64,000 nt of DNA from positions 1,183,695-1,247,694 of the forward strand of contig OY970346.1 of assembly GCA_963717685.1 (NCBI GenBank). Reading direction: 5' to 3'. Both the position numbers and the translations under genes were made by a program. Under the pieces are notes generated by a model, which saw nothing but the letters and a program-made list of their open reading frames with translations, was not told where the DNA came from and ran no database searches. Shown piece by piece: positions 15,599 to 64,000 of the stretch. The first letter of the stretch is position 1, and each line of letters opens with the position of its first letter. The stretch is from an uncultured Bacteroidales bacterium. GTDB lineage: Bacteria > Bacteroidota > Bacteroidia > Bacteroidales > VadinHA17.

Positions 15599-15817
15599 CC
15601 TTATTGTTTATGTCTGTAAATTAAGTCAAATAAGACCAGATTTTGAAGCGGTCAAAGGAAAATGATTCAAAATCATAAGGTCGGGGGATCATGGTCCCCT
15701 CTCGCTATAACGAAAATCAGACACTATCACATTTAACCGGATAGGTGTTTTTTGTTTTATGCCAGGTTTTAGTGGATTTTTAAGTCTTTAAGTAACTCTA
15801 AATTATTTGGGGTATTA

Positions 15818-24726: not shown

Positions 24727-24973
24727 ACAACATTTATTTGACTCATTTATAAGCGTTTTGTAATTTTATAAAAAATTGAAATCATGCCTAAGAGAATTAA
24801 GATTGTACTTACTTTCATTTTAGCTTTATTGCTGCTGGTTATAATTGGCTCAATCTGTAATTGGGCTTATGTTAAAATTAAGCATGGAATCGGGAAAAAT
24901 ACTCATCCGGTAGATTCGATAGAGAATAAAAAATAGTAAGTCAGAACAATTCACTCCTCAAGCTTTTACTGAA

Positions 24974-25070
24974 TTCGATTCCGGCAGGGCCCACTTCAGT
25001 AAATCAACCACTTACGAGGAAAATCAGTAAGTGGTTTTTTATTTTACGCCAGGTTTACGCCAGGTTTTTG
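24974..25070 (+). repeat. att-like unit i: tRNA-3'-end-like stub, hairpin, and 2x ACGCCAGGTTT
   Basis: ttcgattccggcagggcccact .. aaccacttacgaggaaaatcagtaagtggttttttatttt acgccaggttt acgccaggttt. Confidence 0.6.
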
Positions 25071-25092
25071 AGAGATTCGTTTAAATTTAAAC

Positions 25093-26622: not shown

Positions 26623-26769
26623 TCTCCACATAATCAAGATTTAATATATAATTCTTAAATTAACAACGTCTTATAATACATAAGGCTTCATACGGTGCGT
26701 AGCACCCAGTTATGGAGCCCCGGTTGAACTAAATCCCTTAATCCCTTAATACCATTCTTTTATTAAAAC

Positions 26770-26860
26770 GCTGGTTCGATCCCAGCTGGGCCCACTCTTG
26801 AAAATCAACCACTTACAAGTTTTTTTCGTAAGTGGTTTTTTATTTTACGCCAGGTTTTGG
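26770..26860 (+). repeat. att-like unit ii: T arm plus acceptor fragment, hairpin, and 1x ACGCCAGGTTT
   Basis: gctggttcgatcccagctgggcccactcttgaaaatcaaccacttacaag ttttttt cgtaagtggttttttattttacgccaggttttgg. Confidence 0.7.
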
Positions 26861-27042
26861 ATAAAAATCGGGTGTTTTTGACCTAAAAAATGAGTTGGAA
26901 ATATTCCTCCTCCTACAAGAGCATCATCCAACAAACACTGATGCGGTATAAATACTGTCAATTATCTGTATATTGATACATTATAAAAACAGAATGCCCA
27001 AAAATTTTAAATCTTGGGGCAAATATTTGGAGTTAAGAACCA

Positions 27043-27990: not shown

Positions 27991-28020
27991 TTCTTATAAA
28001 TTAGGGGTAGTAAATTATAG

Positions 28021-28111
28021 CCCATCTGAGCCCACTCCTGAAAATCAACCACTTACGAGGAAAATCAGTAAGTGGTTTTTTATTTTACGCCAGGGTTACG
28101 CTAGGTTTTGG
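28021..28111 (+). repeat. att-like unit iii (diverged stub)
   Basis: cccatctgagcccactcctgaaaatcaaccacttacgagg..gtaagtggttttttattttacgccagggttacgctaggttttgg. Confidence 0.6.
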
Positions 28112-28416
28112 AGTGATTTTGTTTAAATTTAAACAAACATCAACATGAATTAACTTTATTTTAATATGGACTGATCTTAATAAAATCCAACTTGACTTTG
28201 ACTAAATCTTGCCCCGGGAATGGGGTATATTATAGCCACTCGCAAACAAATTATAGCTGTAAGGTTAAAGACTTTCCCTTTTGTACATTTGAGTTATTCT
28301 TCGCAAATTTGATACAACATCATAAGAAATGTGATTTTAGATTACGGATGTTTGATATTAATTTAACTCTAAACCTCATTATCTCACTTTCACATGTCAA
28401 TTAAAAACTTAATAAA

Positions 28417-31438: not shown

Positions 31439-31589
31439 AAAACATCAGACACTTACAAGACCAATTGTGGGTGTCTTTTTGTTTGGTACCAGTTTGGTGT
31501 CAGGATCTACTATTAATTGATTACTTATCTCTCCAATATGGTCCTGAAATAGGAAGAGTCTCATCATTTGGCCCCTTAATAAACATGGG

Positions 31590-38234: not shown

Positions 38235-38235
38235 C

Positions 38236-46410: not shown

Positions 46411-46510
46411 GGGACTATTTCTTGTGATGGGAAGGGGAGAAGCTTGGCAAAGGATGATCTTTCACCAGGAACCTTAAAACATAGTAGAAATAATGAATAA
46501 TGTAAAATCC
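46411..46510 (+). repeat. Repeat C, copy C6, 3' part (after IS256; abuts M21)
   Basis: Resumes GGGACTATTTCTTGTGATGGGAAGGGGAGAAGCTTGGCAAAGG... Confidence 0.75.
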
Positions 46511-46621
46511 GTCCTTTTGTGACCACTTCAAAAGACGATCAGATTCCACATAACATACACTATAAAACAACAAGGATTTAACTCCCCTGTAATGGGTGGT
46601 TTGCAAAAACCGTGACAAGCC
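46511..46621 (+). mobile_element. MITE, right arm degraded (M21)
   Basis: TGTAAAATCCGTCCTTTTGTGACCACTTCAAAAG .. ATGGGTGGTTTGC. Confidence 0.6.
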
Positions 46622-46653
46622 TACTTATTATATTGACCGTGTTATAAGCAGTT

Positions 46654-49163: not shown

Positions 49164-49661
49164 ATGAAAAAAATTTGTTTAACAATTTCAATTGCTGTAT
49201 TCCTATTATTCTTATTAAACGGAATACAGGCACAAACAAGGCAACCAAAACTTAATCAGGTTGAACTTATGAAGCAATTCATTGGTAACTGGAAGGTTGA
49301 CATGGCAAAAGATACTGTTCTTTATTGGGATGCAAAAGCATTTGGGACAGGATTTGAAAGTTATTTTAAGACAGTTGTAAAAGACAAAATAATTTCAGAA
49401 GGGAAACAACTTTTCGGGTATGATAGTAAACTTGATAAATGTGTTGCCGCTACTATATTTAAGGGGATGGATATTGAGATATGGGCATTGTGGTTTACAT
49501 CAAATAATAAATATGTTATCACCTATTATAGTGATATTTCAAATCCTGACAAGTCATCCTTTAAAATAGATGGAGAATTTACCTCACCAAATTCTTATTC
49601 AGAAACCTTATTTATGAATGGGAAGGCTGTAATGAAATATAATTATGTAAGGGTTAAATAA
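49164..49661 (+). CDS. Secreted hypothetical protein, paralog of 27043-27543
   Basis: See 27043-27543. Confidence 0.6.
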   Translation: MKKICLTISIAVFLLFLLNGIQAQTRQPKLNQVELMKQFIGNWKVDMAKDTVLYWDAKAFGTGFESYFKTVVKDKIISEGKQLFGYDSKLDKCVAATIFKGMDIEIWALWFTSNNKYVITYYSDISNPDKSSFKIDGEFTSPNSYSETLFMNGKAVMKYNYVRVK

Positions 49662-49841
49662 TCAGTTTAAATAAATCAATGTGCTTTGAAAGATATTATT
49701 TTGGGGCATTTTGTTTTTATAAAGTATTAATATACTGATACCTGACTATATTTTTACCAAATCAGATATTATTGGATGTTGCTCTTGTAGGGGAGGAGTA
49801 TTACAAACTTATTTTTTAGGTCAAAAACACCCCATTTTTCT

Positions 49842-49932
49842 CCAAAACCTGGCGTAAACCTGGCGTGAAATAAAAAACCACTTACGAAAAAAACTTGTAA
49901 GTGGTTGATATTCAAGAGTGGGCCCAATTGGG
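49842..49932 (-). repeat. att-like unit iv (inverted relative to units i-iii)
   Basis: The reverse complement reads caattgggcccactcttgaatatcaaccacttacaag..gtaagtggttttttatttcacgccaggtttacgccaggttttgg. Confidence 0.7.
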
Positions 49933-49965
49933 AATTAATCTACTCCCAAGATATATAAGTACTAT

Positions 49966-50222
49966 AGTGTCAATTACCACCAACCTTTGTTTAAATTTAA
50001 ACGAATTGAAATAAAATCCATCCAACATCCGTCAAAAACCTGGCAACAAGTCAAAACCACTTATAAGGGTTGTCATTTAATTTTTAAGATATAATATCAC
50101 CAGATGTCACCAGGTTGATTCTGGTTGCTTCTGGGGTAGTTTCTAAGGATGGGAAGGGGAGATGCTTGGCAAAAGATAATCTGTCACAAGAACTCTTAAA
50201 ACATAGTAGAAATAATGAATAA
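49966..50222 (+). repeat. Repeat C, copy C7 (abuts M22)
   Basis: Full head and body. Confidence 0.7.
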
Positions 50223-53086: not shown

Positions 53087-53205
53087 CCAAAACCTGGCGT
53101 AAACCTGGCGTGAAATAAAAAACCACCTACAAAAAAAACTTGTAAGTGGTTGATTTTCAAGAGTGGGCCCAGCTGGGATCGAACCAGCGACCCCCTGATT
53201 ATGAG
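53087..53205 (-). repeat. att-like unit v: longest tRNA fragment (anticodon loop to 3' end), hairpin, and 2x ACGCCAGGTTT
   Basis: See the tRNA fragment feature. Immediately left of the integrase. Confidence 0.75.
53164..53205 (-). other. 3' fragment of a tRNA (CAT anticodon loop, T arm, acceptor 3' strand), not an intact gene; candidate att core
   Basis: The minus strand reads ctcataa-tcagg-gggtc-gctgg-ttcgatc-ccagc-tgggccc-a. Upstream there is no matching 5' acceptor strand or D arm. Confidence 0.75.
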
Positions 53206-53306
53206 TGAGATATAACCCTGATTTTCTGATTGTACCGGTTTTCATGGGTATTCATTATCATTCATTTACGATTTTTCGATTTTATTGTTTTTCACTGGTT
53301 TTCATA

Positions 53307-53329
53307 AAACCTGGCGGAAAACCTAGCCG
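53307..53329. promoter_or_regulatory. Tandem AAACCTGGCG-like motifs between the att core and the integrase gene (candidate arm-type sites)
   Basis: aaaacctggcggaaaacctagccg. The same motif pair, in the same orientation, lies at 53089-53112 on the other side of the tRNA fragment. Confidence 0.35.
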
Positions 53330-53351
53330 ATTTTTCTATCCACTTTTTTCT

Positions 53352-54560
53352 TTAAAGAATTGCTTCATTAATACCAAAAGTACTGTCTGGATCAAGCCCG
53401 GCTAAATAGTGTTCAGTAATCACAACATTGCTGTGGCCTAACATGTGACTAATATCTTCGGTTGGAATCTTCTTTCGGCGAAGTGTATTGGCATAGCAAT
53501 CACGGGCCGATCCTAAATTGAGTGGTTGAGATAATTTAAGCTGGTCTCCTATATCTTTCAACTTCCGATTTATTTGTTGCCTGATTTTATGATTCCTGTT
53601 TTTAAAGGACATCTCATCATAACCTTCTTTAATTAATCCCAATAAATATGGACTATTTTGATCTCCGACATGGGCAATTGAGTCCTTGATCTTATCGGTC
53701 AAAGGAACAATAATCTGTTTTTTATTATTTCGTCTTGTCGATTCAGTCTTCTTGCGAGTAAAGAAAATATAATCCCCGTCTATCTGGCTCCATTTCATTC
53801 GAAGTAAATCTGCAAAGTTTGCTCCATTACAGCGATATAGCATAACCCAAACATCCCTGGCAAATTCATGCTCCCTGGTCTTGAACTCCTTTAAATCAAT
53901 TACAGATTGGATCTCTGACTCTTTAAGCACCTGTGTGGAGGGGAAATAACCTGATACTGAAAATCCCCCTGGCCCGAAGGGATATTCATATTCTTTTGGA
54001 ATTACCTTAACATAATGGGTGAAGTAGTTGATAATAGTCCTCAGATTTCTCATGTGGTGATCAACGGTTGCCTGAGAATGTCCCAAATCAATTTCTTTCT
54101 TTTCAAACTTCTTGAGGAAACTTACAGTGACATCTCCGACAGTAGCCCCGGACTTGAAATTCTCAAACCTGTTTTTAGTGTACCTTATTGAGGCAATGGT
54201 TGTGGGCTTGATATTCTCTTTATTTTGGATATAATAATCAAAAAACTCAGATAGGAGCAGGGACTTTGGTTTATCGTTCTCTGTTTCCCAGAAGAGTTTT
54301 CTAAAAGTCTCTTTATTAAATGGTTTCAGTTCAGAAAAGATCCTCTCGCATTTTGAGATATAGCCGTTGCATGTATCCAGAAACTTCCTACTCTCCTCGT
54401 CTTTAGCTTTACTGTTGAACAGTCTGTCATACTGACTTTCTGATATTTTCTGAAGGTTGATATACATTACATCGTTCCCATTTACCATACGAACTGCAAG
54501 ATTGTATTTACTGTCCTTCAGCTTACTTCGCTTGTCCAAGACAATGTTGAATGTAGCCAT
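53352..54560 (-). CDS. Tyrosine site-specific integrase (Bacteroidetes type)
   Basis: C-terminal catalytic region: ..ANFADLLRMKW.., ARDCYANTL, and HMLGHSNVVITEHYL with the catalytic Tyr. It is adjacent to the tRNA fragment. Confidence 0.9.
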   Translation of the reverse strand: MATFNIVLDKRSKLKDSKYNLAVRMVNGNDVMYINLQKISESQYDRLFNSKAKDEESRKFLDTCNGYISKCERIFSELKPFNKETFRKLFWETENDKPKSLLLSEFFDYYIQNKENIKPTTIASIRYTKNRFENFKSGATVGDVTVSFLKKFEKKEIDLGHSQATVDHHMRNLRTIINYFTHYVKVIPKEYEYPFGPGGFSVSGYFPSTQVLKESEIQSVIDLKEFKTREHEFARDVWVMLYRCNGANFADLLRMKWSQIDGDYIFFTRKKTESTRRNNKKQIIVPLTDKIKDSIAHVGDQNSPYLLGLIKEGYDEMSFKNRNHKIRQQINRKLKDIGDQLKLSQPLNLGSARDCYANTLRRKKIPTEDISHMLGHSNVVITEHYLAGLDPDSTFGINEAIL

Positions 54561-54572
54561 GTCTGTTTAAAT

Positions 54573-54785
54573 TTAAACTTTTGGTAGCTGAGGAAGTTTT
54601 TCTTCCATAACTCCACCGCTAATCACCCAAGAGTCAATCTGACTTCTTTCGAACAGGGTTCTTGTTCCAAGCTTGATATGAGGGATAGCGTTTTTCATTA
54701 CTTTTTTGTAGACAAAACTCTCAGACACATCAATGTAATCACACAGATCCTTCACATTCAGAAATCTCTTTTCTTCAATTAACAT
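54573..54785 (-). CDS. Excisionase-family helix-turn-helix protein (HTH_17/AlpA-like)
   Basis: FLNVKDLCDYIDVSESFVYKKVMKNAIPHIKLGTRTLFERSQIDSWV. 70 aa, 12 nt upstream of the integrase. Confidence 0.8.
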   Translation of the reverse strand: MLIEEKRFLNVKDLCDYIDVSESFVYKKVMKNAIPHIKLGTRTLFERSQIDSWVISGGVMEEKLPQLPKV

Positions 54786-54973
54786 CTAATTTTGGATTCT
54801 TTTTTGACCCGCAATAATCACAGGTTATTATCCATTATATTAAGATGTCAAATATTTGTTTGAATTATTTTTTACTTTTTTTTGTTTTTTCTGGTTTTTT
54901 CCACTTTTCTGTCTGCAAATTTTAATATATATAGTATATGATTTAATTTCTTCATATCGTTTCTAAACTATTA

Positions 54974-55009
54974 AGAACTTCATTTTCTACAAGATGAAGT
55001 TCTTTTTTT
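54974..55009. terminator. 10-bp-stem hairpin with a T6 tail on the plus strand, 3' of the minus-strand cargo genes
   Basis: agaacttcat-tttctacaag-atgaagttct-tttttt. The U-tract is on the plus strand only, so its function for the minus-strand genes is uncertain. Confidence 0.4.
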
Positions 55010-55064
55010 GCTGTCTAAGCAACCTTGAATGATAAATTATAGGAGAAGATGTAAAAGGTAATTA

Positions 55065-55391
55065 TTATACCCCGAAGAGTTCTCTTATCTTCTTAAGTTC
55101 ATCAAATTGCTTTTGGGGTGCATTTGTGTTTTTTAATCTTTCTAATTCATTTTCAAGCTCTGAAATGAACTTGGACGGATAGAATAGGTCTAATAGATCT
55201 ACCTTTTGACTGGCCACCATAGCGTTTTCCATAGTTGAATCCTTGCAAAGAATAAAAATTGTCATAGGGTTCTCTGAAAAATCGTAGATGATGATGTTGT
55301 AATACTTCATCCCTTCGTCCAATGAGTTTATATCCCATTGAAGCTGATCCACCATCTTTTGAAGTCGTTCTATTCTTTGCTTTATTGTCAT
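55065..55391 (-). CDS. Hypothetical protein (108 aa, coiled-coil ends)
   Basis: The ORF is tightly spaced, 13 nt after the ClpS-like gene. No family recognised. Confidence 0.5.
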   Translation of the reverse strand: MTIKQRIERLQKMVDQLQWDINSLDEGMKYYNIIIYDFSENPMTIFILCKDSTMENAMVASQKVDLLDLFYPSKFISELENELERLKNTNAPQKQFDELKKIRELFGV

Positions 55392-55404
55392 ATATATCAG
55401 TTAT

Positions 55405-55698
55405 TTAGTTTAAATAAGAACTAATTCTGACAATTGTTGTTTTTAATTGAAATTTGCTCAACTCATGTCTTAAAAGGTTCAAATCATGAAAAGTCCCGTA
55501 TCGTATTATTGCATTTTGCTTATCAGCCATCTTCATAATCCTTACAGAATTTTCGTAAGACCAACCATTTTGGTACAATGCCATGACAACGTCGATAGCT
55601 TTGTTAGGGCCATCCCATAAAAGAAGAAAACAACTTTCACCTTCAGTGTACTGATTCTTATAAGTCTCTTTCTTTTTATGGCTATCGTTGTTCAGCAT
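55405..55698 (-). CDS. ClpS-like (N-recognin adaptor fold) protein
   Basis: CFLLLWDGPNKAIDVVMALYQNGWSYENSVRIMKMADKQNAIIRYGTF aligns by eye with the E. coli ClpS core ([47 protein letters not shown]). Confidence 0.6.
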   Translation of the reverse strand: MLNNDSHKKKETYKNQYTEGESCFLLLWDGPNKAIDVVMALYQNGWSYENSVRIMKMADKQNAIIRYGTFHDLNLLRHELSKFQLKTTIVRISSYLN

Positions 55699-55770
55699 AT
55701 CAAATTAATTTACATTAAAAAGGTACTTCTAAGTATTAAAGGTTATCATTCAAGATATCATGATAATCAG

Positions 55771-55831
55771 CTTATCCTAAGCAACTTAGAAAGGTCGGCA
55801 AAAATACAGCAAAAAACCGGAACTGCCTAAT
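55771..55831 (-). promoter_or_regulatory. Conserved ~60-bp upstream element, copy A (73 nt upstream of the ClpS-like gene)
   Basis: cttatcctaagcaacttagaaaggtcggcaaaaatacagcaaaaaaccggaactgcctaat. About 80% identical to 57240-57300. Confidence 0.5.
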
Positions 55832-55879
55832 CAAAGCATATTATTGATTCGAGATGGATTACGCAAAGTCGAATTAGGG

Positions 55880-56320
55880 CTATTTAACTGAAAAGATCAG
55901 TTCAATCATTGGAGGTGAGATCAATATACATTGATAGTATCCTTTTGCTTTCAGAGAAGAATAGAAACTCACTGATAACATGAATATACAAAAAGAGGAA
56001 CTAATAATTGTTCCCAAAGTACTTCCTAAAATTAACAATATCAAGGCAATAACAAGAAATAAAATAGCTAGAAATCTTGCAATAACATCTCTAGAAAGCC
56101 AGATATGAATGTTTTCTAATGATTCATTTATAAACATGCGGATGTATAACTGCATGTTAAACTCAGATTTATCCTCAAGTAACCTGGCATAGTATGCTCC
56201 ATGTTCAATTTTGTTCTTCCACGGAAATTCTACATACTTTCTCAATTTTAGACCATTAAAAGAATACTTACCGTATTTAATTTCTGAAAGATCTATGATG
56301 TTTATTAATCGGTTAATCAT
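55880..56320 (-). CDS. Hypothetical membrane protein (146 aa, 2 TM)
   Basis: TM segments FLAILFLVIALILLILGSTLGTIISSSFCIFMLSVSFY. Confidence 0.45.
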   Translation of the reverse strand: MINRLINIIDLSEIKYGKYSFNGLKLRKYVEFPWKNKIEHGAYYARLLEDKSEFNMQLYIRMFINESLENIHIWLSRDVIARFLAILFLVIALILLILGSTLGTIISSSFCIFMLSVSFYSSLKAKGYYQCILISPPMIELIFSVK

Positions 56321-56393
56321 TTAATAGGTAATTATTGATTTATAAATAAAAGACCCTAATATTAGTATATCTGTCAGTTAGTTAATTAAAAAT

Positions 56394-56699
56394 TCAATTC
56401 AAACAGTGATTGTCAGTTACCAGCTCAATCGTAGTCGTTAAATTCAGTTCGTTGAGTCCTTCTCTTATTATCTCCAACTCAGAAAACGTCCCATACCTGA
56501 CTATCGAATTCCCGTGATTATGAGCCGTTAACATAATTCTAACGGAGTTCTCATCTGAAATGCCGATTTGGCATAAAGCTGTGACAACATCAATTGCTTT
56601 ATGAAAATCATCGTTCCATAGTACCAGAAAACAATTTTCCTCTTCCTGCTGCCAGATTTATTTTGAGGTATTGTCCTTATTTTTACTGCTTTGTGTCAT
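56394..56699 (-). pseudogene. Second ClpS-like gene, interrupted by an in-frame TAA at codon 14 (not in the ORF track)
   Basis: Own translation is MTQSSKNKDNTSK*IWQQEEENCFLVLWNDDFHKAIDVVTALCQIGISDENSVRIMLTAHNHGNSIVRYGTFSELEIIREGL... TAA is at 56658-56660. LWNDDF and IMLTAHNHGNSIV match ClpS LVNDDY and LMLAVHYQGKAIC. Confidence 0.6.
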
Positions 56700-56721
56700 G
56701 TTTTTTCTCTTATTAATACCC

Positions 56722-57147
56722 TTATTTGAATTTATAAATCTCAACCTGTAAGTCAAGAGTGACAAAATCCAACTTCCTGAATTCTTTGACAAAGTCAATG
56801 AATTGATCGTCTTCTGTCTCGAAGTAACCTGACCAGTTATTTATGTAATATACCTGTCCATTCCTGCATTTAATTTGTCCTGCCATTATGATTTCATTTT
56901 CTTTCTTTGCTAGCTTGAAATGTCCAATTCCAAAGAATAGTTTGAATTTTGTATCAATAAGGAAATTTACTGCGTCACCATCGGTAACAATAGGGTCGAA
57001 TCTTAGTTTCTTGTCTAGAATAACGGCTTTTAACATTTTGGTAGCAACTTGTGGCACCAAATTCTTCATTTTAATTAAAGGCAAATTTGGTGTTATCAAG
57101 TCACTTAAATCAATAAAGAAGTCATTATCCTTACTTATTTCCTTCAT
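56722..57147 (-). CDS. Hypothetical protein (141 aa)
   Basis: Clean ORF, divergent from the HEPN-motif gene. No family recognised. Confidence 0.5.
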   Translation of the reverse strand: MKEISKDNDFFIDLSDLITPNLPLIKMKNLVPQVATKMLKAVILDKKLRFDPIVTDGDAVNFLIDTKFKLFFGIGHFKLAKKENEIIMAGQIKCRNGQVYYINNWSGYFETEDDQFIDFVKEFRKLDFVTLDLQVEIYKFK

Positions 57148-57239
57148 ATGGTAATAAAAATTTATTAATTGATAGTTTATATAAAAAAAGGTCCCTTCAG
57201 GTTCCTAAGAATATTGACCACGACGCTATAATTAATATG

Positions 57240-57300
57240 CTAATCTTAAGTAACTTAGAAGGGTAGACAAAATTAAGGCAAAAAACCGGAACTGCCTAAT
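57240..57300 (-). promoter_or_regulatory. Conserved ~60-bp upstream element, copy B (93 nt upstream of the 141-aa gene)
   Basis: ctaatcttaagtaacttagaagggtagacaaaattaaggcaaaaaaccggaactgcctaat. Confidence 0.5.
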
Positions 57301-57384
57301 AGATTCTAAAAATGATAGATATTTAAGATTAATTAATTATCTGATTTTATATAACTTGCAATTGAATAATAAAACCACATATAG

Positions 57385-57909
57385 ATGAATATAGAAGATC
57401 TTAAGAATGTCAATCAACTCGTAAAAAATGTCGAAGCCCAGATGCCAAAGGGGCGGGAATTAATTTACTACTTTACAATTACCTTTGCCAGATTTGAATT
57501 CGCTTTGAAACAAATAGATCGATATTTAAAATCAAATCCGGAATATGGTACGGCAGAAGCTAACTGGATTGCCTTTTCAAAATTTGTCAAGCAGCGATAC
57601 TATTTGAACAAAAACAGTGATGCTATTCGTCCCTCCATTGATTTTCTCTTAGGTAACCCTCCAGGAGTTCAAATGGTTGTAAATAGAAATCTAGAATTTG
57701 TTCACAAATATGATGATCGTGGTGAAATTGGAAATATTATTTGTTTTATTAATGTCATAAGAAATAACTTATTACATGGAAATAAATTTGACGGTGATTA
57801 TGAACCAGATTCACGAAACTTCAAATTAATTACCTCTGCTCTTATTATCCTAGATTTCTTACTAGACCTTGATCCGGATGTAAAAGGTCATTTTCGATCA
57901 ACCTTATAG
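57385..57909 (+). CDS. Putative HEPN-domain protein (candidate RNase)
   Basis: An Rx4H motif in an all-alpha context: NVIRNNLLHGNKF (R-NNLL-H followed by G). 174 aa. Confidence 0.5.
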   Translation: MNIEDLKNVNQLVKNVEAQMPKGRELIYYFTITFARFEFALKQIDRYLKSNPEYGTAEANWIAFSKFVKQRYYLNKNSDAIRPSIDFLLGNPPGVQMVVNRNLEFVHKYDDRGEIGNIICFINVIRNNLLHGNKFDGDYEPDSRNFKLITSALIILDFLLDLDPDVKGHFRSTL

Positions 57910-57946
57910 AACTATTTAGAGGTTGTTTTTAAGATTTACTGTATTA

Positions 57947-58891
57947 TTAGTTCCAGGTTATACAATTTAAAACTCCAGCTTTCATTGCAATGCATCGAGA
58001 GTTAGTAGGAATTATAGTTTTATTTATTCCAGAAAAGATGGTTGTGAATACTTTAATTGCCTGAATGTCGCTTTTTTCAAATCCTTCTCCAAATTGAGGA
58101 AGAAAAACAAAATTTTTAGTATCCAGATAATTAATATAAAGACCTAAGGCAGCAGGCATTTCATCCTCTCCGATTTCATCAACAGGGGAATATGTCACCT
58201 GAAGTATATTCAATCCAGCTTTACCAAGAACTCCAAATAAATTATTTAAATAATGATTACTCTCTTCAAATTCAGAACCTATAACAGAAGAGAAGTCATT
58301 TATGAGAACGGTCTTCTCGTCTATGAATCTGACAACTCCATCTGCATGTGAAAGCACATCATACGGTGTGCGAGGAATAATAATAATTTCTGAATTAAGC
58401 AGTTTCTGAATCCTATTTAATAATTGACTCTGCTCTGAAATGCTATTCTGAATACCATTTTCTCTGAATATGGCATCGGTCATAATGATCTTTGCACCAA
58501 ATTGGACAACATTTCCACCATCGATAAGAATATCATCAACAGATTCAAATTCAATATATAATTCATTTAATATCCGAATTATATCTTTTCTTAGAGTAAG
58601 TTTTTCTTTCCATTTACCCCTTAAATAGGAGGGATTGTAATTAAAAAGGAACAAGGTACCATTGGCACCTTTGACAGGCATAAAATCACGACACCAGATA
58701 TCTTTAGTATAAGGTAATCCAATTAATTCTATATTCGTATTTACTGTAAGTTTTTCAAAGAATTCATGGTAAAAAGCCTGTTCTCCTTTTAATAAATTTG
58801 AGATATAAACCTTCTCATTGCTGCTATTTAATGGATCTGAAATCTGCTTCTCATTAGCATTTAAAACACCATGTTTCTGAATATTCTCCAT
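57947..58891 (-). CDS. Agmatine deiminase / PAD_porph-fold guanidino-group-modifying enzyme
   Basis: DIWCRDFMPV (the D-W-RD motif), IDGGNVVQFG, SHADGVVRF (catalytic His) and C-terminal AGVLNCITWN (nucleophile Cys). Confidence 0.7.
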   Translation of the reverse strand: MENIQKHGVLNANEKQISDPLNSSNEKVYISNLLKGEQAFYHEFFEKLTVNTNIELIGLPYTKDIWCRDFMPVKGANGTLFLFNYNPSYLRGKWKEKLTLRKDIIRILNELYIEFESVDDILIDGGNVVQFGAKIIMTDAIFRENGIQNSISEQSQLLNRIQKLLNSEIIIIPRTPYDVLSHADGVVRFIDEKTVLINDFSSVIGSEFEESNHYLNNLFGVLGKAGLNILQVTYSPVDEIGEDEMPAALGLYINYLDTKNFVFLPQFGEGFEKSDIQAIKVFTTIFSGINKTIIPTNSRCIAMKAGVLNCITWN

Positions 58892-58936
58892 AGTCTCTAA
58901 ACTTTTATTCCAACTGTTTAAATAATAATTAATTAC

Positions 58937-59596
58937 TTATAAACTATTACCGTATTTATCTAACCACCTTATTGCTTCCTGGTATTCAGGATATAATGAA
59001 CGCAGTTCTGTCCAAAATCTTTGAGTGTGATTCATTGTTCTGGTGTGAACCAATTCGTGATAAAGCAAGTAATCAATCACAAATTGAGGAGTTTTTATAA
59101 GTCGCCAATTAAATGACAGGTTTTTCTCTGTCGAACAATTACCCCATTTTGTTCTTTGATCTCGAATAAAAATCTTCTTGTATTTGAATTTATGTTTCTT
59201 TGAAATGTCTATCAATCGAATTGTAATGTATCGTTTCCCATAACGTTTATACCATTTTAGCAACTCTGTGTTCTCAAGTAAATTTATTTTTGATTGGATT
59301 GTCTTATGTTCCTGATTGATTAAAACTTTGTTGTACAAGTCGGACCTATAGAAATAGCGGTATTTATCACCAAACAGAAGGATTTGGTTTTGAGGTAGTT
59401 TAATTTTTTCAGTTTTCCCTCTGAACTTATTCAGGTTTTTATCAATCCAGTCTTGTTTTTTCTTTATTAGTTTTTCTATTTCAGAATCGGTAAAAGTGGC
59501 AGGCACAAGCACTCTGACAGACAAGTTTTCTCTTACCCTGATCCTGGCATGCTTCACATTTTTGCGTTCAAGTATATAGTTTTCCGGGAGTTCCAT
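58937..59596 (-). CDS. DUF45/YgjP-type HExxH metal-dependent hydrolase
   Basis: KWGNCSTEKNLSFNWRLIKTPQFVIDYLLYHELVHTRTMNHTQRFW. The start overlaps the hsdR stop (TAATG). Confidence 0.8.
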   Translation of the reverse strand: MELPENYILERKNVKHARIRVRENLSVRVLVPATFTDSEIEKLIKKKQDWIDKNLNKFRGKTEKIKLPQNQILLFGDKYRYFYRSDLYNKVLINQEHKTIQSKINLLENTELLKWYKRYGKRYITIRLIDISKKHKFKYKKIFIRDQRTKWGNCSTEKNLSFNWRLIKTPQFVIDYLLYHELVHTRTMNHTQRFWTELRSLYPEYQEAIRWLDKYGNSL

Positions 59597-62500
59597 TAAT
59601 CTAAACCATAATTTTGAACTACTCTTTTCATTATATTTTCCATTAATTCAGCATCTTCGTCAATATTCAATGATGCAAACGTATCATCAACAGAAAGTAT
59701 TTCAATTTCTGCCTGTATCCGTTTCAATTCTCGATCATTGTCCTGCCATCCAATATATCTTTTTGTCTTAATCATTGAAGAAATAGCTTTTGCGAATGCT
59801 TTTGACAACTCAGAATTGAAATTTTCTTTCTTTTGATTCTTTATTTCTGTGTAAATATCGAACTCTCCCCTATCTTCAAATCCCATTCTATTTGGTAAAG
59901 ATGCCACATTATCTATTTCAGAATAAAGTCCTTCTAATTCTTGCAAGCTAGCTGCAATATTATCAGCTTCGGTTTCTTTCCGTTTTATTAATTCATCCAA
60001 ACGAACCTGAAATTCAATGAAAATCGGGCTTTCTATTTCATTTTTCCTAATGACTGTTTCAATATCACGGATAATTTTTTCGGCTTTATCACTCGGGTTG
60101 AGCCTACTTCTGTTCAAATTATCTAAGTATTTCTCATCTACCTTAATTTCAGGTAAATGTCCTTTAAAACTTAGCAGTATTACATTTTCCTGAATGAGTT
60201 TTCGTGTTTTTACTGCATAAACTTCTGCATCAAAATCCAAACGTTTGAATTCTTCTAGATAAATCTCATAAATCTCATTTAACCATAGATATTTTTCTCT
60301 GCTTTCCCTCAGTTTTGGATGTGGTGATATAGCTTCGTACAATTGGATAACCTGTTTTGTATCTGATTCGAACTTGCCCTGATCAAGCAATGTAAGTGTT
60401 CTGACAATTGCAATGCTACATTCATAACTATCTTCCAAAACAATATCCTTAAAAGGTTCAAATGCTTTGTTCAACACACTCGGGAATGATTCTACCAGCT
60501 TATCTACATCTTCAAATTCACCAATATCAGCAGGGTCATAGTTAAGTGCTTCATTGTAATTTGTAAATACGCCCACATAGTCCACAATTCTGCCAAATTG
60601 TTTGGTCATCTTAGTTACTTTGTCATCATATGGTCTATTTGTTCTGGCAACGGCCTGCAAAAGATTATGATCACGGAGTGGACTGTCCAAATACATCGTC
60701 TGCTCAACCGGTGCATCAAATCCAGTCAGAAGCATATTGCATACAATAAAAATTTTCAGATTATTTCCTCTATTAACTTCTTCATCAGTAATTCTACGTT
60801 TGAATTGTTTTATCAATTTCTTCCTATCCCCATCACTTAAATAATGGTCTCTATATAATTCATAATGGTCAGCGTCGTCATAATTGCTTTCTGAGAAAAT
60901 AATTTTGATTTCACTCCTTTCAAAACCACATTTTATCAATTCGTTGTAATATAAAACACAAGCTTCCTTATCACACCCGACAACCTGTGCTTTATAACCT
61001 AATGGTTCTACAACTGTCCTGTAATCATCATAAATATCCTTTGCTAATGTTTTTATCCTGTCAGGATGTTTTAAAAACTGTTTCCAGGCTTGCGTTCGTC
61101 GTTCAACTAATCTGGTTTCATCCTCACTTAATTCTGCAGTAATAGCTTCCCACCCGTCTTTGAGTTTATCCTTATCTAAATGCCATTTTTGAGGACCGAA
61201 GGTATATCTAATAGCTACCGTTGCTCCATCTTCTATTGCATCTATAATATTATACTGATCAAGAAATGGTTCTATCAGTTTTGTCCCCTCACGGATACCG
61301 AAATCACGATGAGTCTTTGGAATTGGAGTCCCGGTAAAAGCAAATCGTCTAGCTTGAGGAAAAACATTTTGCAGTTCAATCTGAAAATCACCATATTGTG
61401 TTCTATGTGCTTCATCAATTAGTAAAATCACATTAGTTCTATCGTCTTTCCGATTACCTAATTCCTGAAACTTTTGAATTGTTGTAATAAAAACACCAGC
61501 TGGTCGACTATCTATCTTGTGCTTTAAATCTCCAATGTTCCTTATAGTATCAACATTGGGGAATTCACAATCATCGAATGTTCCACCAATTTGTTCTTTA
61601 AGATCTTTGCGGTCAACTACTATATAGACAGTGGGGTCTTTTAATTTATCATTCTGTCTCAATTTGTATGCGGTATATAACATTGTCAAACTCTTGCCGC
61701 TTCCTTGTGTGTGCCAGATAACTCCCTGCTTCAATTCTTCTTTAACTACACGGTCAACAATTTTATTAGCTGCTCTCAATTGTTGATATCTTGCGACCTT
61801 TTTAACTATTCCAGAATCTTCTGTCCTTTCAAAAACAACGAAATTTCTTAGAATATCTAAAACTCTTGCAGGCTGAAGCAATCCAAGAATCCCCCATTTC
61901 ATTTGTTCTTCAGGAATTTGTTTGCCATCAGAAGTTTTCAGATATTTTACCTTGAAATGAACATATCCTTCTTTTTCTTCCCACTCACACAAATCATTTT
62001 CTCTATCCAAAATCGGATTTTCGAATGATGTGTCAATTATTGTGTCCTTCCATTCATTGAAATACGATGAAGATGCCCCTATTATGCCATATTTTGTAAT
62101 CTTTCCGTTACATGCAACGCCAAAACAATGGCTCATCCAGTATTGAGCCGCTCTTTGCTGATAAGTACTGAACTGTTTTACTCCTTCCAGCCAGTTTGTA
62201 CCCTTTCTGGCTCTTTGCTTCGCTTCAATGGGTATAAGAGGAATTCCATTGACAAGTAATACAAGATCGGTCTTGACTATTTTGTATCCCTGCACCCAAT
62301 ATTGTTGTGTCACCCTGAAATCATTCTTCCAGATATTATCAAAATCAATGTATTTGCAATCTTGAGGCTCGCCCTGTATGTTCATTGTAATGCCTTCAAT
62401 TAGCCTCTTCAAGAATCTTTCATTGCCATCAATAGGTGTTGGATTGTTAAGGTTCTGCGTTAATGTTTCAATAGCACTTTGCGTATCTATATCATTAAGA

Positions 62501-62667
62501 TTGTTAAACTCCTTTATTTTGTTAAATAAAATCGGTTCAATAATCGGATTAGAGAATGGACGATGAAATTCCTGCAAATCTTCCAAAGAATTATAATTCC
62601 AACCCATCTTGCTTAACCATTCGCAAACAGGTCTTTCAACTCCGTTTAATTCAGAAATATTTGCCAT
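59596..62667 (-). CDS. hsdR: Type I restriction enzyme R subunit
   Basis: N-terminal PD-ExK nuclease motif (DLVLLVNGIPLIPIEAKQ), helicase motif I HTQGSGKSLT, and the DEAH box LLIDEAHRTQYG. 1023 aa. Confidence 0.9.
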   Translation of the reverse strand: MANISELNGVERPVCEWLSKMGWNYNSLEDLQEFHRPFSNPIIEPILFNKIKEFNNLNDIDTQSAIETLTQNLNNPTPIDGNERFLKRLIEGITMNIQGEPQDCKYIDFDNIWKNDFRVTQQYWVQGYKIVKTDLVLLVNGIPLIPIEAKQRARKGTNWLEGVKQFSTYQQRAAQYWMSHCFGVACNGKITKYGIIGASSSYFNEWKDTIIDTSFENPILDRENDLCEWEEKEGYVHFKVKYLKTSDGKQIPEEQMKWGILGLLQPARVLDILRNFVVFERTEDSGIVKKVARYQQLRAANKIVDRVVKEELKQGVIWHTQGSGKSLTMLYTAYKLRQNDKLKDPTVYIVVDRKDLKEQIGGTFDDCEFPNVDTIRNIGDLKHKIDSRPAGVFITTIQKFQELGNRKDDRTNVILLIDEAHRTQYGDFQIELQNVFPQARRFAFTGTPIPKTHRDFGIREGTKLIEPFLDQYNIIDAIEDGATVAIRYTFGPQKWHLDKDKLKDGWEAITAELSEDETRLVERRTQAWKQFLKHPDRIKTLAKDIYDDYRTVVEPLGYKAQVVGCDKEACVLYYNELIKCGFERSEIKIIFSESNYDDADHYELYRDHYLSDGDRKKLIKQFKRRITDEEVNRGNNLKIFIVCNMLLTGFDAPVEQTMYLDSPLRDHNLLQAVARTNRPYDDKVTKMTKQFGRIVDYVGVFTNYNEALNYDPADIGEFEDVDKLVESFPSVLNKAFEPFKDIVLEDSYECSIAIVRTLTLLDQGKFESDTKQVIQLYEAISPHPKLRESREKYLWLNEIYEIYLEEFKRLDFDAEVYAVKTRKLIQENVILLSFKGHLPEIKVDEKYLDNLNRSRLNPSDKAEKIIRDIETVIRKNEIESPIFIEFQVRLDELIKRKETEADNIAASLQELEGLYSEIDNVASLPNRMGFEDRGEFDIYTEIKNQKKENFNSELSKAFAKAISSMIKTKRYIGWQDNDRELKRIQAEIEILSVDDTFASLNIDEDAELMENIMKRVVQNYGLD

Positions 62668-62672
62668 AATGG

Positions 62673-63839
62673 TTATATTGAAATATTAAAATGATCCTTA
62701 AGAATTTTTTTGATTTGCAACGATTGGTCAGTTCCTTCATAAGTCACAATAAGTCTACCAGGAAAATTATTATCATACCATCTTTTCTTTGTTTCCCAGT
62801 GTTTTTTGTATTCAGGTAAATCTAATCTGCCAATATGTTCCCAATAAAACTCCTCACCTTTCCATCGAATGGTAAAATCAGGTAAATACATTGACCCGTC
62901 TTTAGCAAACTTCGAAACTTCATAACTAAATGGTATTTTTTGTTGGTAAAGAGTATTGGCTATGTTCATTTCAGATTTTGAACGGACAAAATATTCTGAA
63001 AGAGTTGAAATAACTTTCTGATCTTCGTACCAATTTGTCCTTAATGCAAAAAGAGAATCAGGAATTGGTTTAAATTCAAATATGGAAGAATTGATTTTGC
63101 GAATATTTGATTTTTCAATCCTAGTCAGGTCAATAAAAGTAGTAACATCCTCTTGGGCGAAAATTGTAAGACTCTTTTGGGCTCTTGTTATCGCTGTATA
63201 AAAAAGCTCCATTGAAATCAATGAACTGTTTCTTTTGGGAAGAACTAAATAGACTCTGTTGAATTCGCTTCCTTGTGCTTTATGAACTGAAATAACATAT
63301 CCCAATTCTAGATTCTCATCTACTGGTTCATAAAACATTGGTTTATAGTCATATCCTTCAAGGTAACCATAGTTGACCGAGTATTCGTCCCTTCTTTCGA
63401 ACTTAACTTGAAATTTCTTCAAATTAAATTCACTCCAACCAGTATTCTTGTCAAAAGGATGGGGGTAAACAAATCCTAATTCTCCATTGTAAATATCAAT
63501 TTTTATATTTTTCTTTTCCTTAAAACTATAGGCAGATATCTTATTTGATTGTGGCCTATTCCTAAACTGGATAACTTTATCATAAAGAGCAATGCCATCT
63601 AATTGAGTTTTATTGGCTTGTTCTGTATTGAAAAGATTTTGAAAGTAAGAATTAAGATAGTCTGTCCCATAAAATTCACCACGAAAAGGGGATAATATTT
63701 GTAAGTAACTTGGATTAGGATATTGGGTGCCAGTTCTTATGGTTTTCCTCCAAAGATCGACAAAATTTGATTGTTCAAAATCCGACCCTAGTTCTTTTTT
63801 CAGATCAGCATGAATTGTTGATTTAATTAAAGGCTCCAA
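62673..63839 (-). CDS. SF1 (RecD/UvrD_C-like) helicase C-terminal half fused to a PD-(D/E)xK-like nuclease domain; N-terminal ATPase part not in this ORF
   Basis: ILSPFRGEFYGTDYLN, YNGELGFVY (SH3-like), ISVHKAQGSEFNRVYLVL, and YTAITRAQKSLTIF. The C-terminal region is YLPDFTIRWKGEEFYWEHIG. TTG start. Confidence 0.65.
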   Translation of the reverse strand: MEPLIKSTIHADLKKELGSDFEQSNFVDLWRKTIRTGTQYPNPSYLQILSPFRGEFYGTDYLNSYFQNLFNTEQANKTQLDGIALYDKVIQFRNRPQSNKISAYSFKEKKNIKIDIYNGELGFVYPHPFDKNTGWSEFNLKKFQVKFERRDEYSVNYGYLEGYDYKPMFYEPVDENLELGYVISVHKAQGSEFNRVYLVLPKRNSSLISMELFYTAITRAQKSLTIFAQEDVTTFIDLTRIEKSNIRKINSSIFEFKPIPDSLFALRTNWYEDQKVISTLSEYFVRSKSEMNIANTLYQQKIPFSYEVSKFAKDGSMYLPDFTIRWKGEEFYWEHIGRLDLPEYKKHWETKKRWYDNNFPGRLIVTYEGTDQSLQIKKILKDHFNISI

Positions 63840-63840
63840 T

Positions 63841-64000
63841 TCAGAACATCTCTTTCCAATAATGGACGGTCAGATCTTTGTCAATTAGTCCCCCTTGTTG
63901 AACTTTTTTTAGAATAGTTTCCTGATTTGTTTTATTGAAGTTTTCCGATTGATTTTCCTGAATGTAAATCTCGGCTAATTCTAAAATTCCATTACCCTTC
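63841..64000 (-). CDS. Partial ORF (3' end only), in a different frame, ending 1 nt before the helicase-C ORF
   Basis: Own translation is ..KGNGILELAEIYIQENQSENFNKTNQETILKKVQQGGLIDKDLTVHYWKEMF* with TGA at 63841-63843. It may be the helicase N-terminal part (frameshifted or a separate gene). Confidence 0.4.
   Translation of the reverse strand, partial: KGNGILELAEIYIQENQSENFNKTNQETILKKVQQGGLIDKDLTVHYWKEMF

What the first reader, a model, noticed from the sequence alone, without database searches (positions are those of the whole stretch)
53087..54785. attP-like architecture next to the integrase: a tRNA 3' fragment flanked on both sides by AAACCTGGCG tandem motifs
At 53164-53205 (minus strand) there is only the 3' portion of a CAT-anticodon tRNA, running from the anticodon loop through the T arm and acceptor strand. 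No 5' acceptor strand or D arm is upstream, so it is an att core rather than a gene. Tandem AAACCTGGCG-like motifs in the same orientation lie on both sides: 53089-53112 (aaaacctggcgtaaacctggcg) and 53307-53329 (aaaacctggcggaaaacctagccg). The integrase and excisionase genes follow immediately. Core-flanking arm-type repeats on both sides is what an attP, or an attP-like junction between tandemly integrated elements, looks like. A simple attL or attR would carry arm sites on one side only.
Basis: partly seen in the sequence, partly recalled or inferred. Interest (0 to 1): 0.6.

Follow-up and report, generated by a model that had tools for sequence, protein, structure and literature searches.

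The report
Tandem island junction at tRNA site
This is the integrase end of a defence-gene island inserted in a tRNA gene, lying directly against the leftover end of an earlier island of the same family, which puts integrase-binding-type repeats on both sides; this kind of island pile-up is already described.

Summary
Window 53164-53206(-) is the 3' 43 nt of a CAT-anticodon tRNA. There is no tRNA gene anywhere in the window. CGCCAGGTTT repeats, in the same orientation, lie on both sides of the fragment.

Comparative data support them as arm-type sites. The integrase-proximal pair is kept just after the integrase stop codon in relatives down to 52% identity, including one that targets a different tRNA.

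The distal pair belongs to a roughly 110-nt module: tRNA 3' end, terminator hairpin, then two repeats. This module is the element-borne P' arm. It follows the intact tRNA at attL in a complete 8.1-kb relative (L015) and in a 1.8-kb integrase-less mini-element (L027).

Simple one-sided attR junctions exist (L027, L004), and an empty attB shows no repeats in the 48 nt visible (L024). A two-sided junction is therefore composite: attR abutting the P' arm of an earlier resident.

The window holds four more P' modules without integrase or P arm, and several decayed ones. This is accretion of islands and remnants. It is not a free attP, because the source contig is 3.5 Mb.

Known kind, new member. 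The island's far end lies beyond the window, and integrase binding is untested.

The parts
54573..54785 (-). excisionase-type (RDF) gene, 70 aa
   Evidence: PF12728 HTH_17 at 3.5e-9. TIGR01764 'excise' at 35.8 bits, above its 28.8 cut-off. An HTH_17 gene sits directly upstream of int in all related loci.
53352..54560 (-). tyrosine integrase, 402 aa, intact
   Evidence: PF00589 + PF13102. 374 homologues at E<=1e-30, most of them 402 aa. R235, R353, H376 and Y385 are invariant in 25 homologues. The AF2 model has an N-terminal three-stranded sheet (residues 2-40) plus helices. Foldseek aligns the model with full-length lambda Int over 390-403 columns.
53307..53329 (-). P-arm pair of direct repeats, CGGCTAGGTTTT CCGCCAGGTTTT, 12-nt phase
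   Evidence: The same pair lies 20-30 nt after the int stop codon in L003, L008, L009, L010, L015, L016 and L004. In L020/21 it lies about 170 nt after the stop, behind an inserted decayed hairpin-motif unit.
53232..53305 (-). rest of the P arm: two inverted arm-like sites (CACTGGTTTT 53293-53302, TACCGGTTTT 53233-53242 on the + strand) and the conserved block AAATCGTAAATGAATGATAATGAA (53251-53274)
   Evidence: These are conserved columns in the alignment of 11 att regions. The block is unique in the window. The binding partner (Int or Xis) is inferred.
53164..53206 (-). att core: 3' 43 nt of tRNA(CAT), from the anticodon loop (53199-53205) through the T arm and acceptor 3' strand
   Evidence: The left limit of identity to the intact tRNA is one base before the anticodon loop.
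53121..53151 (-). terminator hairpin followed by a T-run
   Evidence: 13 pairs plus a T tail; -16 kcal/mol. Stems differ between loci by compensating changes, while the flanking repeats stay fixed.
53089..53111 (-). P'-type pair of direct repeats, ACGCCAGGTTT ACGCCAGGTTTT, 11-nt phase
   Evidence: Homology with the 95%-identical relative L010 stops exactly here, at window 53086.
49840..49947 (-). second P' module (u49k): degenerate tRNA end + hairpin + repeat pair; no P arm, no int
   Evidence: nhmmer 1.2e-26; alignment. It is in direct orientation to the 53-kb unit, 3.25 kb away.
50018..50075 (-). decayed P' module just upstream of u49k
   Evidence: nhmmer E 0.13 only.
24967..25091 (+). P' module u25k (opposite orientation)
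   Evidence: nhmmer 3.4e-25.
26768..26892 (+). P' module u26k, with a true T arm and acceptor strand but only one repeat
   Evidence: 97% complementary to 53101-53189 (I24); nhmmer 4.3e-25. L007 from another metagenome is 99% identical.
28008..28132 (+). P' module u28k
   Evidence: nhmmer 9.9e-26.
15666..15770 (+). decayed att remnant: a different tRNA-like T arm, a hairpin and one repeat
   Evidence: nhmmer 9.6e-9; sequence.
31441..31507 (+). decayed hairpin + diverged repeat pair (GGTACCAGTTTGGTGTCAGGAT)
   Evidence: nhmmer 1.6e-6; sequence. It resembles the L016 downstream pair.
54800..64000 (.). cargo of the integrase-bearing island (continues beyond the window): small ORFs, a PAD_porph enzyme, a YgjP-like peptidase, type I restriction R subunit, C-terminal part of a PDC-S68 / RecD-like candidate defence protein

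Best explanation
53089-53329 is the integrase-proximal junction (attR type) of a genomic island that integrated into a CAT-anticodon tRNA gene lying beyond base 64000. The island belongs to a widespread Bacteroidota/Bacteroidales family that encodes a lambda-like three-domain tyrosine integrase and an excisionase.

The family's attP spans about 240 bp. It consists of:
- a P arm with two direct CGCYAGGTTTT sites, plus inverted CACTGGTTTT-type sites;
- a core, which is the tRNA 3' half (strand exchange is inferred near the anticodon loop);
- a P' arm, made of a replacement terminator hairpin for the tRNA and two more CGCCAGGTTT sites one helical turn apart.

Integration leaves the P' arm behind the rebuilt tRNA at attL, and leaves P arm plus core at attR. 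In this window the attR core is followed by a P' arm rather than by native chromosome. The island therefore entered a tRNA locus that already carried the P' end of an earlier resident. This is the integration, decay, re-integration sequence known as accretion.

The 49.8-kb unit, the decayed unit at 50.05 kb, the three inverted units at 25-28 kb and further decayed copies are older layers, reshuffled by inversions and IS activity.

Shown here: the anatomy, its conservation, the element-borne origin of the P' module, and the existence of simple one-sided junctions. Inferred: Int binding to the repeats, the position of strand exchange, and the order of events.
For: 1. The P-arm pair is conserved with int across 52-97% identity, including L004, whose core is a different tRNA.

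2. L015 is a complete integrated element. An intact tRNA-Met at 3230-3308 is followed inside the element by a hairpin and ACGCCAGGTTTACGCCAGGTTTT. About 8.1 kb further on come xis, int, the P arm and the core fragment. Housekeeping genes lie to the left of the tRNA.

3. L027: tRNA, P' module, a Fic gene, then a diverged P arm and core. No hairpin or repeats follow. This is a 1.8-kb integrase-less element with a one-sided attR.

4. L026 and L027 have the same MTAP protein (P0240) and the same tRNA and upstream sequence, but diverge exactly after GGGCCCAC. Each has its own hairpin, the same repeat pair and different genes beyond. The module is therefore swapped in with incoming DNA.

5. L024 is an empty site: tRNA plus an unrelated terminator, with no repeats in the 48 nt visible.

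6. Homology between the window and the 95%-identical L010 runs from int through core, hairpin and repeat pair, and ends at 53086.

7. The same layering occurs elsewhere: attR unit, then 1-3 genes, then a second P' unit with a shorter tRNA remnant, in L010 and L019-23.

8. The window has one integrase and one P arm but at least 5 strong and several decayed P' modules. In 281 kb of related loci the profile hits only att sites.

9. The integrase is on a 3.5-Mb contig.

10. Accretion with decayed, integrase-less partners (CIMEs) is the published three-step model (PMC5704250).
Against: - The island's far end and its intact tRNA are outside the window and could not be fetched.
- The 3.1 kb between the 53-kb and 49.8-kb units has no trace of a P arm or integrase. 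It encodes a TPR-SpoIIE protein that looks like an ordinary chromosomal gene.
- The tRNA parts of u25k, u28k and u49k keep only about 9-17 nt of the tRNA end, so they are not clean att copies.
- All seven independent integrase-bearing junctions at this tRNA whose distal side could be read are two-sided; L003 is cut off at the core. The only one-sided case at this tRNA is the integrase-less L027. This could mean that repeats on the target side are preferred or needed rather than incidental.
- The two arrays face each other with no tRNA between them, which needs additional rearrangements that I did not reconstruct.
- No binding or recombination data exist.
Confidence: 0.7

Rival explanations
1. 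It is a true attP. Either the element is present as a free circle or plasmid-like form, or as a head-to-tail duplicate of itself. In that case the DNA to the left of 53089 is the element's own far end.
For: - The P-core-P' span of 241 bp has all the parts of an attP.
- For a 61%-identical relative, one contig (L020) is a circular permutation of the integrated form. Int-P-core-P' continues directly into the element's left end.
- Window and L010 share everything up to the end of the P' pair, and differ beyond it as variable cargo would.
Against: - The integrase is on a 3.5-Mb contig.
- The sequence to the left runs within 3.1 kb into another P' module and then MFS, hydrolase, IS256 and secreted-protease genes. 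It does not run into a copy of the right-hand island.
- L020 could be an assembly path through a >100-nt repeat.
Confidence: 0.08
2. The left-hand repeats are native chromosome. In these bacteria the tRNA gene itself is followed by a terminator and two integrase sites (an 'armed' attB), so every attR looks two-sided.
For: - Seven independent integrase-bearing junctions at this tRNA are two-sided.
- Intact tRNAs in L026 and L027 are followed by the pair with no integrase within 10 kb.
Against: - L026 and L027 share identical upstream sequence and tRNA but have different hairpins and flanks.
- In L027 the pair lies inside a 1.8-kb element whose own attR is one-sided.
- The empty site L024 has another terminator and no repeats in the 48 nt visible.
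- In L015 the pair after the tRNA lies between the direct repeats, so it belongs to the element.
Confidence: 0.07
3. The P' modules are working recombination sites of a cassette platform. Int uses them, integron-like or rAID-1-like, to capture, stack and reshuffle 1-3-gene cassettes behind the tRNA. The 53-kb junction would be the platform's primary site.
For: - Units are spaced 1.2-3.3 kb apart and bound 1-2 genes.
- A second unit lies after 1-3 genes in L010 and L019-23, with different genes between conserved boundaries.
- A 1.8-kb integrase-less Fic element has both arms.
- Arrays of small ORFs, including NTF2-like or immunity-type ones, lie downstream of att in L016 and L020.
- rAID-1 arrays in Bacteroidales pair a tyrosine recombinase with repetitive intergenic sequences (bioRxiv 10.1101/471110).
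Against: - The units lack a P arm and mostly lack the anticodon-side core, so they are not full partners.
- Gene orientation is mixed, not co-directional with the recombinase as the rAID-1 definition requires.
- Many copies are decayed.
- The same cassette was not seen in different positions.
Confidence: 0.1
4. The hairpin-plus-repeat module is a generic intergenic terminator repeat of this genome, unrelated to integration. Its likeness to the P-arm repeats would be coincidental.
For: The window is crowded with other intergenic repeat families, and modules occur about every 6-7 kb.
Against: - All 8 exact 10-mers lie in att units.
- In 281 kb of related loci, including three 10-kb housekeeping stretches, the profile hits only att or tRNA sites.
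- The repeat is identical to the int-proximal site in distant relatives.
Confidence: 0.03

Closest known systems
Lambda-type (heterobivalent) tyrosine integrase with a complex attP
   Same: - Three-domain integrase with an adjacent excisionase gene.
- Short direct repeats, distinct from the core, on both arms.
- The core lies in the middle.
   Different: - The core is a tRNA 3' half.
- The P' arm also carries a replacement terminator for the tRNA.
- Pfam arm-binding models do not detect the N-terminal domain.
- No biochemical data exist.
Tandem accretion of ICEs/IMEs with decayed cis-mobilizable elements (CIMEs), e.g. ICESt1/ICESt3 of Streptococcus thermophilus (Pavlovic 2004 and Bellanger 2011, as cited in PMC5704250)
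   Same: - More than two att copies in direct order.
- The internal junction carries arms from both neighbours.
- The segments between att copies lack integrase.
- The three-step history of integration, decay and re-integration applies.
   Different: - A different phylum, a different integrase family and a different target (a tRNA 3' half).
- The remnants here keep only the P' side and not both att sites, apart from the L027 mini-element.
- Many layers are present, in two orientations.
Bacteroides mobilizable elements NBU1/NBU2 (IntN1/IntN2), which integrate in the 3' ends of tRNA-Leu and tRNA-Ser genes (from memory, not tested here)
   Same: A Bacteroidota host, a tyrosine integrase with a SAM-like domain, a tRNA 3'-end target, and repeats flanking the core in the element's att site.
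   Different: - Those cores are 13-14 bp at the extreme 3' end. Here 43 nt from the anticodon loop onward are duplicated.
- No mobilisation genes are seen in the window part of the island or in L015.
- Sequence relationship to IntN1/IntN2 was not tested.
rAID-1 recombinase-associated immunity-gene arrays of Bacteroidales (bioRxiv 10.1101/471110)
   Same: A tyrosine recombinase next to stretches of small, low-GC, horizontally acquired genes separated by repeated intergenic sequences.
   Different: - rAID-1 is defined by genes co-directional with, and downstream of, the recombinase.
- That paper describes no excisionase and no tRNA core for rAID-1.
- Identity to the rAID-1 recombinase could not be measured here.

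Membership tests
Heterobivalent (lambda-type) tyrosine integrase / complex attP | Tyrosine recombinase catalytic domain with conserved Arg, Arg, His and Tyr | tested here: met
   PF00589 at 6.9e-12. R235, R353, H376 and Y385 are invariant in 25 homologues. Their assignment to catalytic roles is inferred.
Heterobivalent (lambda-type) tyrosine integrase / complex attP | A separate N-terminal arm-binding domain | tested here: inconclusive
   The AF2 model has strands 2-14, 18-27 and 30-40 followed by helices, with pLDDT 81-88 over residues 1-50. Foldseek aligns 390-403 columns with full-length lambda Int chains. Pfam finds no arm-binding family in residues 1-111.
Heterobivalent (lambda-type) tyrosine integrase / complex attP | Arm-type repeats, distinct from the core, on both sides of the core | tested here: met
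   Pairs at 53307-53329 and 53089-53111. Both pairs are conserved in L008, L009, L010, L015 and L019-21.
Heterobivalent (lambda-type) tyrosine integrase / complex attP | The integrase N-domain binds the arm repeats | not testable with these tools
   Needs EMSA or footprinting.
Heterobivalent (lambda-type) tyrosine integrase / complex attP | An adjacent recombination directionality factor | tested here: met
   TIGR01764 'excise' at 35.8 bits, above its 28.8 cut-off, and PF12728.
tRNA-gene-targeting integrative island | att core identical to the 3' part of a tRNA gene | tested here: met
   43 nt, with 1 mismatch to the intact tRNA of L024.
tRNA-gene-targeting integrative island | Integrated copy bounded by an intact tRNA at one end and the 3' fragment at the other | tested here: inconclusive
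   Met in relatives L015 (8.1 kb) and L027 (1.8 kb). For the window itself the far end lies beyond 64000 and the 3.5-Mb contig could not be read.
tRNA-gene-targeting integrative island | An empty target site in a related genome | tested here: met
   L024 has the same MTAP-tRNA synteny, the tRNA followed by an unrelated terminator, and in the same-protein 254-kb contig no integrase nearby. Only 48 nt of downstream DNA are visible.
Tandem accretion array (ICE/IME + CIME) | Three or more att-derived copies in direct orientation | tested here: met
   53.1k, 50.05k (decayed) and 49.8k on the minus strand; 25.0k, 26.8k and 28.1k on the plus strand.
Tandem accretion array (ICE/IME + CIME) | The partner segment is bounded by both an attL and an attR (a true CIME) | tested here: not met
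   The segment 53088-49948 has a P' module at each end but no P arm. It is a remnant and not a CIME in the strict sense. L027 does meet this feature.
Tandem accretion array (ICE/IME + CIME) | Excision through alternative att pairs | not testable with these tools
   Needs reads or PCR across junctions.
Integron / rAID-1-type cassette array | Cassettes co-directional with, and downstream of, the recombinase, each with a recombination site | tested here: not met
   ORFs beside the units are in mixed orientation, and the nearest ones converge on int.

The most novel reading that the evidence does not exclude
The P' module (tRNA end, terminator and two integrase sites) is a reusable docking site and not a dead scar. 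Integrase-less mini-elements that keep the arms (such as the 1.8-kb Fic element in L027), together with P'-bounded 1-3-gene segments, would be moved and stacked in trans by resident integrases. That would make the CAT-tRNA locus of these Bacteroidota a tRNA-anchored, arm-site-guided platform for accumulating defence and immunity genes, analogous in outcome to integrons or rAID-1 but built from lambda-type att arms.
Probability: 0.15. Interest if true: 0.6.

Novelty: new member of a known kind. Interest (0 to 1): 0.3.

Why it matters
It provides a clean, comparatively supported map of the attachment site of a large, uncharacterised integrase family from uncultured Bacteroidota. The family has 374 homologues at E<=1e-30. 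The map covers arm repeats, core, a built-in tRNA terminator and the RDF gene.

It also gives a practical rule for reading such loci. One-sided arms indicate a first integration. Two-sided arms indicate an island stacked on an older one.

The islands carry defence cargo: type I restriction and a PDC-S68 candidate here, AbiE, Fic and E2-like genes in relatives. The locus is therefore a hot spot for turnover of defence genes.

The att map could serve for island boundary calling and, if the sites are validated, as an integration tool for Bacteroidota. The concept itself (complex attP, tandem accretion) is established.

Tried and rejected
- Reaching the island's far end failed. The 3.5-Mb source contig is indexed but not readable. 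Logan contigs from the same run break at the att repeat (L001 ends about 175 nt after the int stop) or stop at the window edge (L002). The last ORF is not on record.
- The genome-contig scan with the integrase gave only 4 loci and not the source genome.
- Three viral-contig scans (repeat pair, tRNA fragment, integrase) gave nothing, so there is no sign of a phage.
- The metagenome scan for the unit gave 3 short contigs, none with an intact tRNA.
- Two look-ups (P0067, P0124) returned gene tables without DNA.
- Pfam, even at E<=10, finds no arm-binding domain.
- I considered that window and L010 differ by an inversion between the 25-kb and 53-kb units, because L010's junction continues like the flank of u25k at 86% identity. 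I dropped this because that flank is itself a multi-copy repeat (D12/D15).
- I considered strand exchange at the repeat pair rather than in the tRNA. I rejected it because L026 and L027 diverge immediately after the tRNA end.
- I considered that the about 350-nt repeats upstream of u49k and u28k are decayed P arms. The profile search gave no support: P-arm columns hit only at 53.3 kb.
- Whether the CAT tRNA is Met or lysidine-type Ile was not resolved.
Full report
**What is there**

On the minus strand the region reads, in order:
- an excisionase-type gene (54785-54573; HTH_17, TIGR01764);
- a 402-aa tyrosine integrase (54560-53352; PF00589 + PF13102);
- 22 nt after the stop codon, two direct repeats, CGGCTAGGTTTT CCGCCAGGTTTT (53329-53307);
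- about 100 nt holding two inverted look-alike sites and a conserved block;
- the 3' 43 nt of a CAT-anticodon tRNA (53206-53164);
- a 13-bp hairpin with a T-run (53151-53121);
- ACGCCAGGTTT ACGCCAGGTTTT (53111-53089).

ARAGORN and Rfam find no tRNA gene in the whole window. Rfam's tRNA model scores the fragment at 18 bits, against a cut-off of 29. Alignment with intact tRNAs from relatives shows identity from one base before the anticodon loop to the 3' end, and nothing upstream of that. The exact 10-mer occurs 8 times in the window against 0.08 expected, always in att-like units.

**The left-hand repeats are part of a module**

The left-hand repeats are the end of a roughly 110-nt module: tRNA 3' end, hairpin, T-run, two repeats. 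This module recurs at 49840-49947(-), 24967-25091(+), 26768-26892(+) and 28008-28132(+).

I built a profile from seven related att regions. It hits full-length only at 53334-53085 (E 1e-84). The four other units match only its core-end, hairpin and repeat part (E about 1e-25). Decayed copies appear at 15666-15770, 31441-31507 and 20659-20727, and by alignment at about 0.8, 44.9 and 50.05 kb. The window has a single integrase and a single P arm.

**Are the repeats arm-type sites?**

The integrase has 374 homologues at E<=1e-30, nearly all 402 aa, from Bacteroidales/Bacteroidota metagenome bins. I read the att region of eleven related loci.
- The pair after the integrase stop codon is always present. 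This includes L004, whose integrase is only 52% identical and whose core is a different tRNA.
- The hairpins differ in sequence between loci, but each folds at -9 to -17 kcal/mol and is followed by a T-run. The repeat pair next to them is almost invariant. That is the pattern expected of a structural terminator beside a sequence-specific protein site.
- The AlphaFold model of the integrase has an N-terminal three-stranded sheet with helices ahead of the core-binding and catalytic domains. It aligns with full-length lambda integrase over 390-403 columns. Pfam does not recognise the N-terminal domain.

Binding itself is inferred.

**Which side owns the distal module?**

Four loci bear on this.
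- **L015.** This 185-kb contig has an integrase 76% identical to the window's, and it holds a complete integrated element. Housekeeping genes (IF-2B/MtnA-like, aldolase, MTAP) are followed by an intact tRNA-Met(cat). Next come a hairpin and ACGCCAGGTTTACGCCAGGTTTT, about 8.1 kb of cargo, xis, int, the P arm and the tRNA fragment. The module after the intact tRNA lies between the direct repeats, so it belongs to the element. It is the P' arm, and it brings a new terminator for the rebuilt tRNA.
- **L026 and L027.** These share an identical MTAP protein (P0240), upstream sequence and tRNA. They diverge exactly after the tRNA end. Each has its own hairpin, the same repeat pair, and different genes beyond.
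- **L027 attR.** In L027 the module is followed by one Fic gene and then a diverged P arm plus core. After that core there is no hairpin and no repeats. This is a 1.8-kb integrase-less element with a one-sided attR.
- **L024.** With the same MTAP-tRNA synteny, L024 is an empty site. The tRNA is followed by an unrelated terminator and no repeats in the 48 nt before the contig ends.

L004 is also one-sided. A two-sided junction means that attR abuts another P' arm.

**How common is the two-sided form?**

It is the rule. It occurs in the window, L008, L009, L010, L015, L016 (with a diverged pair) and L019-23. L015 shows it in an element that is certainly integrated. The architecture therefore does not indicate a free attP.

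The window's integrase sits on a 3.5-Mb contig. One relative gives a real attP-like join: contig L020 is a circular permutation of the integrated form seen in L019 and L021. Int-P-core-P' runs into the element's own left end. This could be a circle, a tandem copy, or an assembly path through the repeat.

**Reading of the window**

The island to the right of 53.2 kb entered a tRNA locus that already carried the P' end of an earlier resident. It carries type I restriction R, a YgjP-like peptidase, PAD_porph and a PDC-S68 / RecD-like candidate defence gene.

Homology with the 95%-identical relative L010 runs from int through core, hairpin and repeat pair and stops at 53086. Beyond that point the two genomes carry different genes, until a second P' unit appears (window 49.8 kb; L010 13.3 kb). 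L019-23 show the same layout: attR unit, three genes, then a second unit with only 14 nt of tRNA.

This matches the published model of integration, decay to an integrase-less remnant, and re-integration (accretion) (PMC5704250). In the strict sense the neighbour is not a CIME, because it has no P arm.

Two features point to later rearrangement:
- The two arrays are in opposite orientation.
- Mobile-DNA and repeat features lie between them: IS21 (32.7-35.1 kb), split IS256-type transposase genes (45.1-46.3 kb) and a 655-bp 99% inverted repeat.

**Limits**

- The segment between the 53-kb and 49.8-kb units looks chromosomal in content.
- Several units keep only 9-17 nt of the tRNA.
- The near-universal two-sidedness leaves room for a functional role of target-side repeats.
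- No biochemistry exists.

I put 0.7 on accretion, about 0.1 on an active cassette platform, and less than 0.1 each on a true attP or self-tandem, a native armed attB, and a generic repeat.

**Verdict**

This is a real, well-formed att junction of a new, widespread but ordinary type of tRNA-targeting island. It is a new member of a known kind, of modest interest.

Noticed in passing
L027:5313-7170: A 1.8-kb integrase-less mini-element. An intact tRNA-Met and a P' module are followed by a single Fic-domain gene, then a diverged P arm and the tRNA fragment. Just upstream of the P arm there are three tandem copies of a 60-nt repeat (6750-7000).
   Followed up: partly
L020 (whole 15.2-kb contig) versus L019/L021: L020 is a circular permutation of an integrated element whose integrase is 61% identical to the window's. 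This points to an excised circle, a tandem copy, or an assembly path through the att repeat.
   Followed up: partly
window 21556-22210 and 37581-38235: A 655-nt inverted repeat at 99% identity, 15.4 kb apart, each arm covering a 149-168-aa ORF with no Pfam match. It could mediate inversion of the segment between the arms.
   Followed up: no
window 32700-35086 and 45112-46302: An IS21-type pair (IstB 251 aa; IstA-like 517 aa with rve and Mu-transposase C domains) and a Mutator/IS256-family transposase split into two ORFs (268 aa and 120 aa).
   Followed up: no
window 1069-1210, 3552-3693, 4881-5022, 5975-6116, 20863-21004, 38306-38447, 46502-46643 and others: Dense families of 80-230-nt intergenic repeats, 7-12 copies each, containing GGTGGTCAA-type short repeats in direct and inverted order. 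Copies also occur next to GroEL in relative L010, so they are probably genome-wide.
   Followed up: partly
window 839-874, 20627-20662, 25075-25110, 28117-28153, 44897-44932, 49985-50020, 54564-54577 and others: The palindrome GTTTAAATTTAAAC occurs at least 9 times. It often follows a P' module, and it also lies 4 nt upstream of the integrase ATG. Possibly a shared regulatory or promoter element.
   Followed up: no
window 27043-27603(-) and 49164-49661(+); L016:2821-3318, 12381-12932, 15059-15568: A paralogous family of 165-186-aa proteins without Pfam match lies just beyond P' modules u26k and u49k. Related sequence recurs at three places in relative L016 (nucleotide similarity 67-84%).
   Followed up: partly
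window 62673-63839(-): This 388-aa ORF matches only positions 819-1200 of the 1202-position PADLOC candidate-defence profile PDC-S68 (E 6.5e-154). It is therefore the C-terminal third of a larger gene that is split or mis-started near the window edge. The adjacent type I restriction R gene has no visible M or S partner inside the window.
   Followed up: no
window 53164-53206; L024:10828-10903: ARAGORN calls the target tRNA Met(cat). From memory, its acceptor stem (GGGCCCA, with C4 and C5) and the sequence around the anticodon resemble lysidine-type tRNA-Ile2. This was not tested.
   Followed up: no
window 15666-15770(+): An att remnant with a different tRNA-like T arm (GGGGGATCATGGTCCCC), followed by a hairpin and one TGCCAGGTTTT repeat. 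This may be a scar of a relative that used another tRNA.
   Followed up: no
window 21007-21426(-) and 50373-52523(-): A 139-aa ORF carrying only the C-terminal part of a SpoIIE phosphatase domain lies 29 kb from the full TPR-SpoIIE gene that sits next to the att junction. This suggests partial duplication within the mosaic.
   Followed up: no
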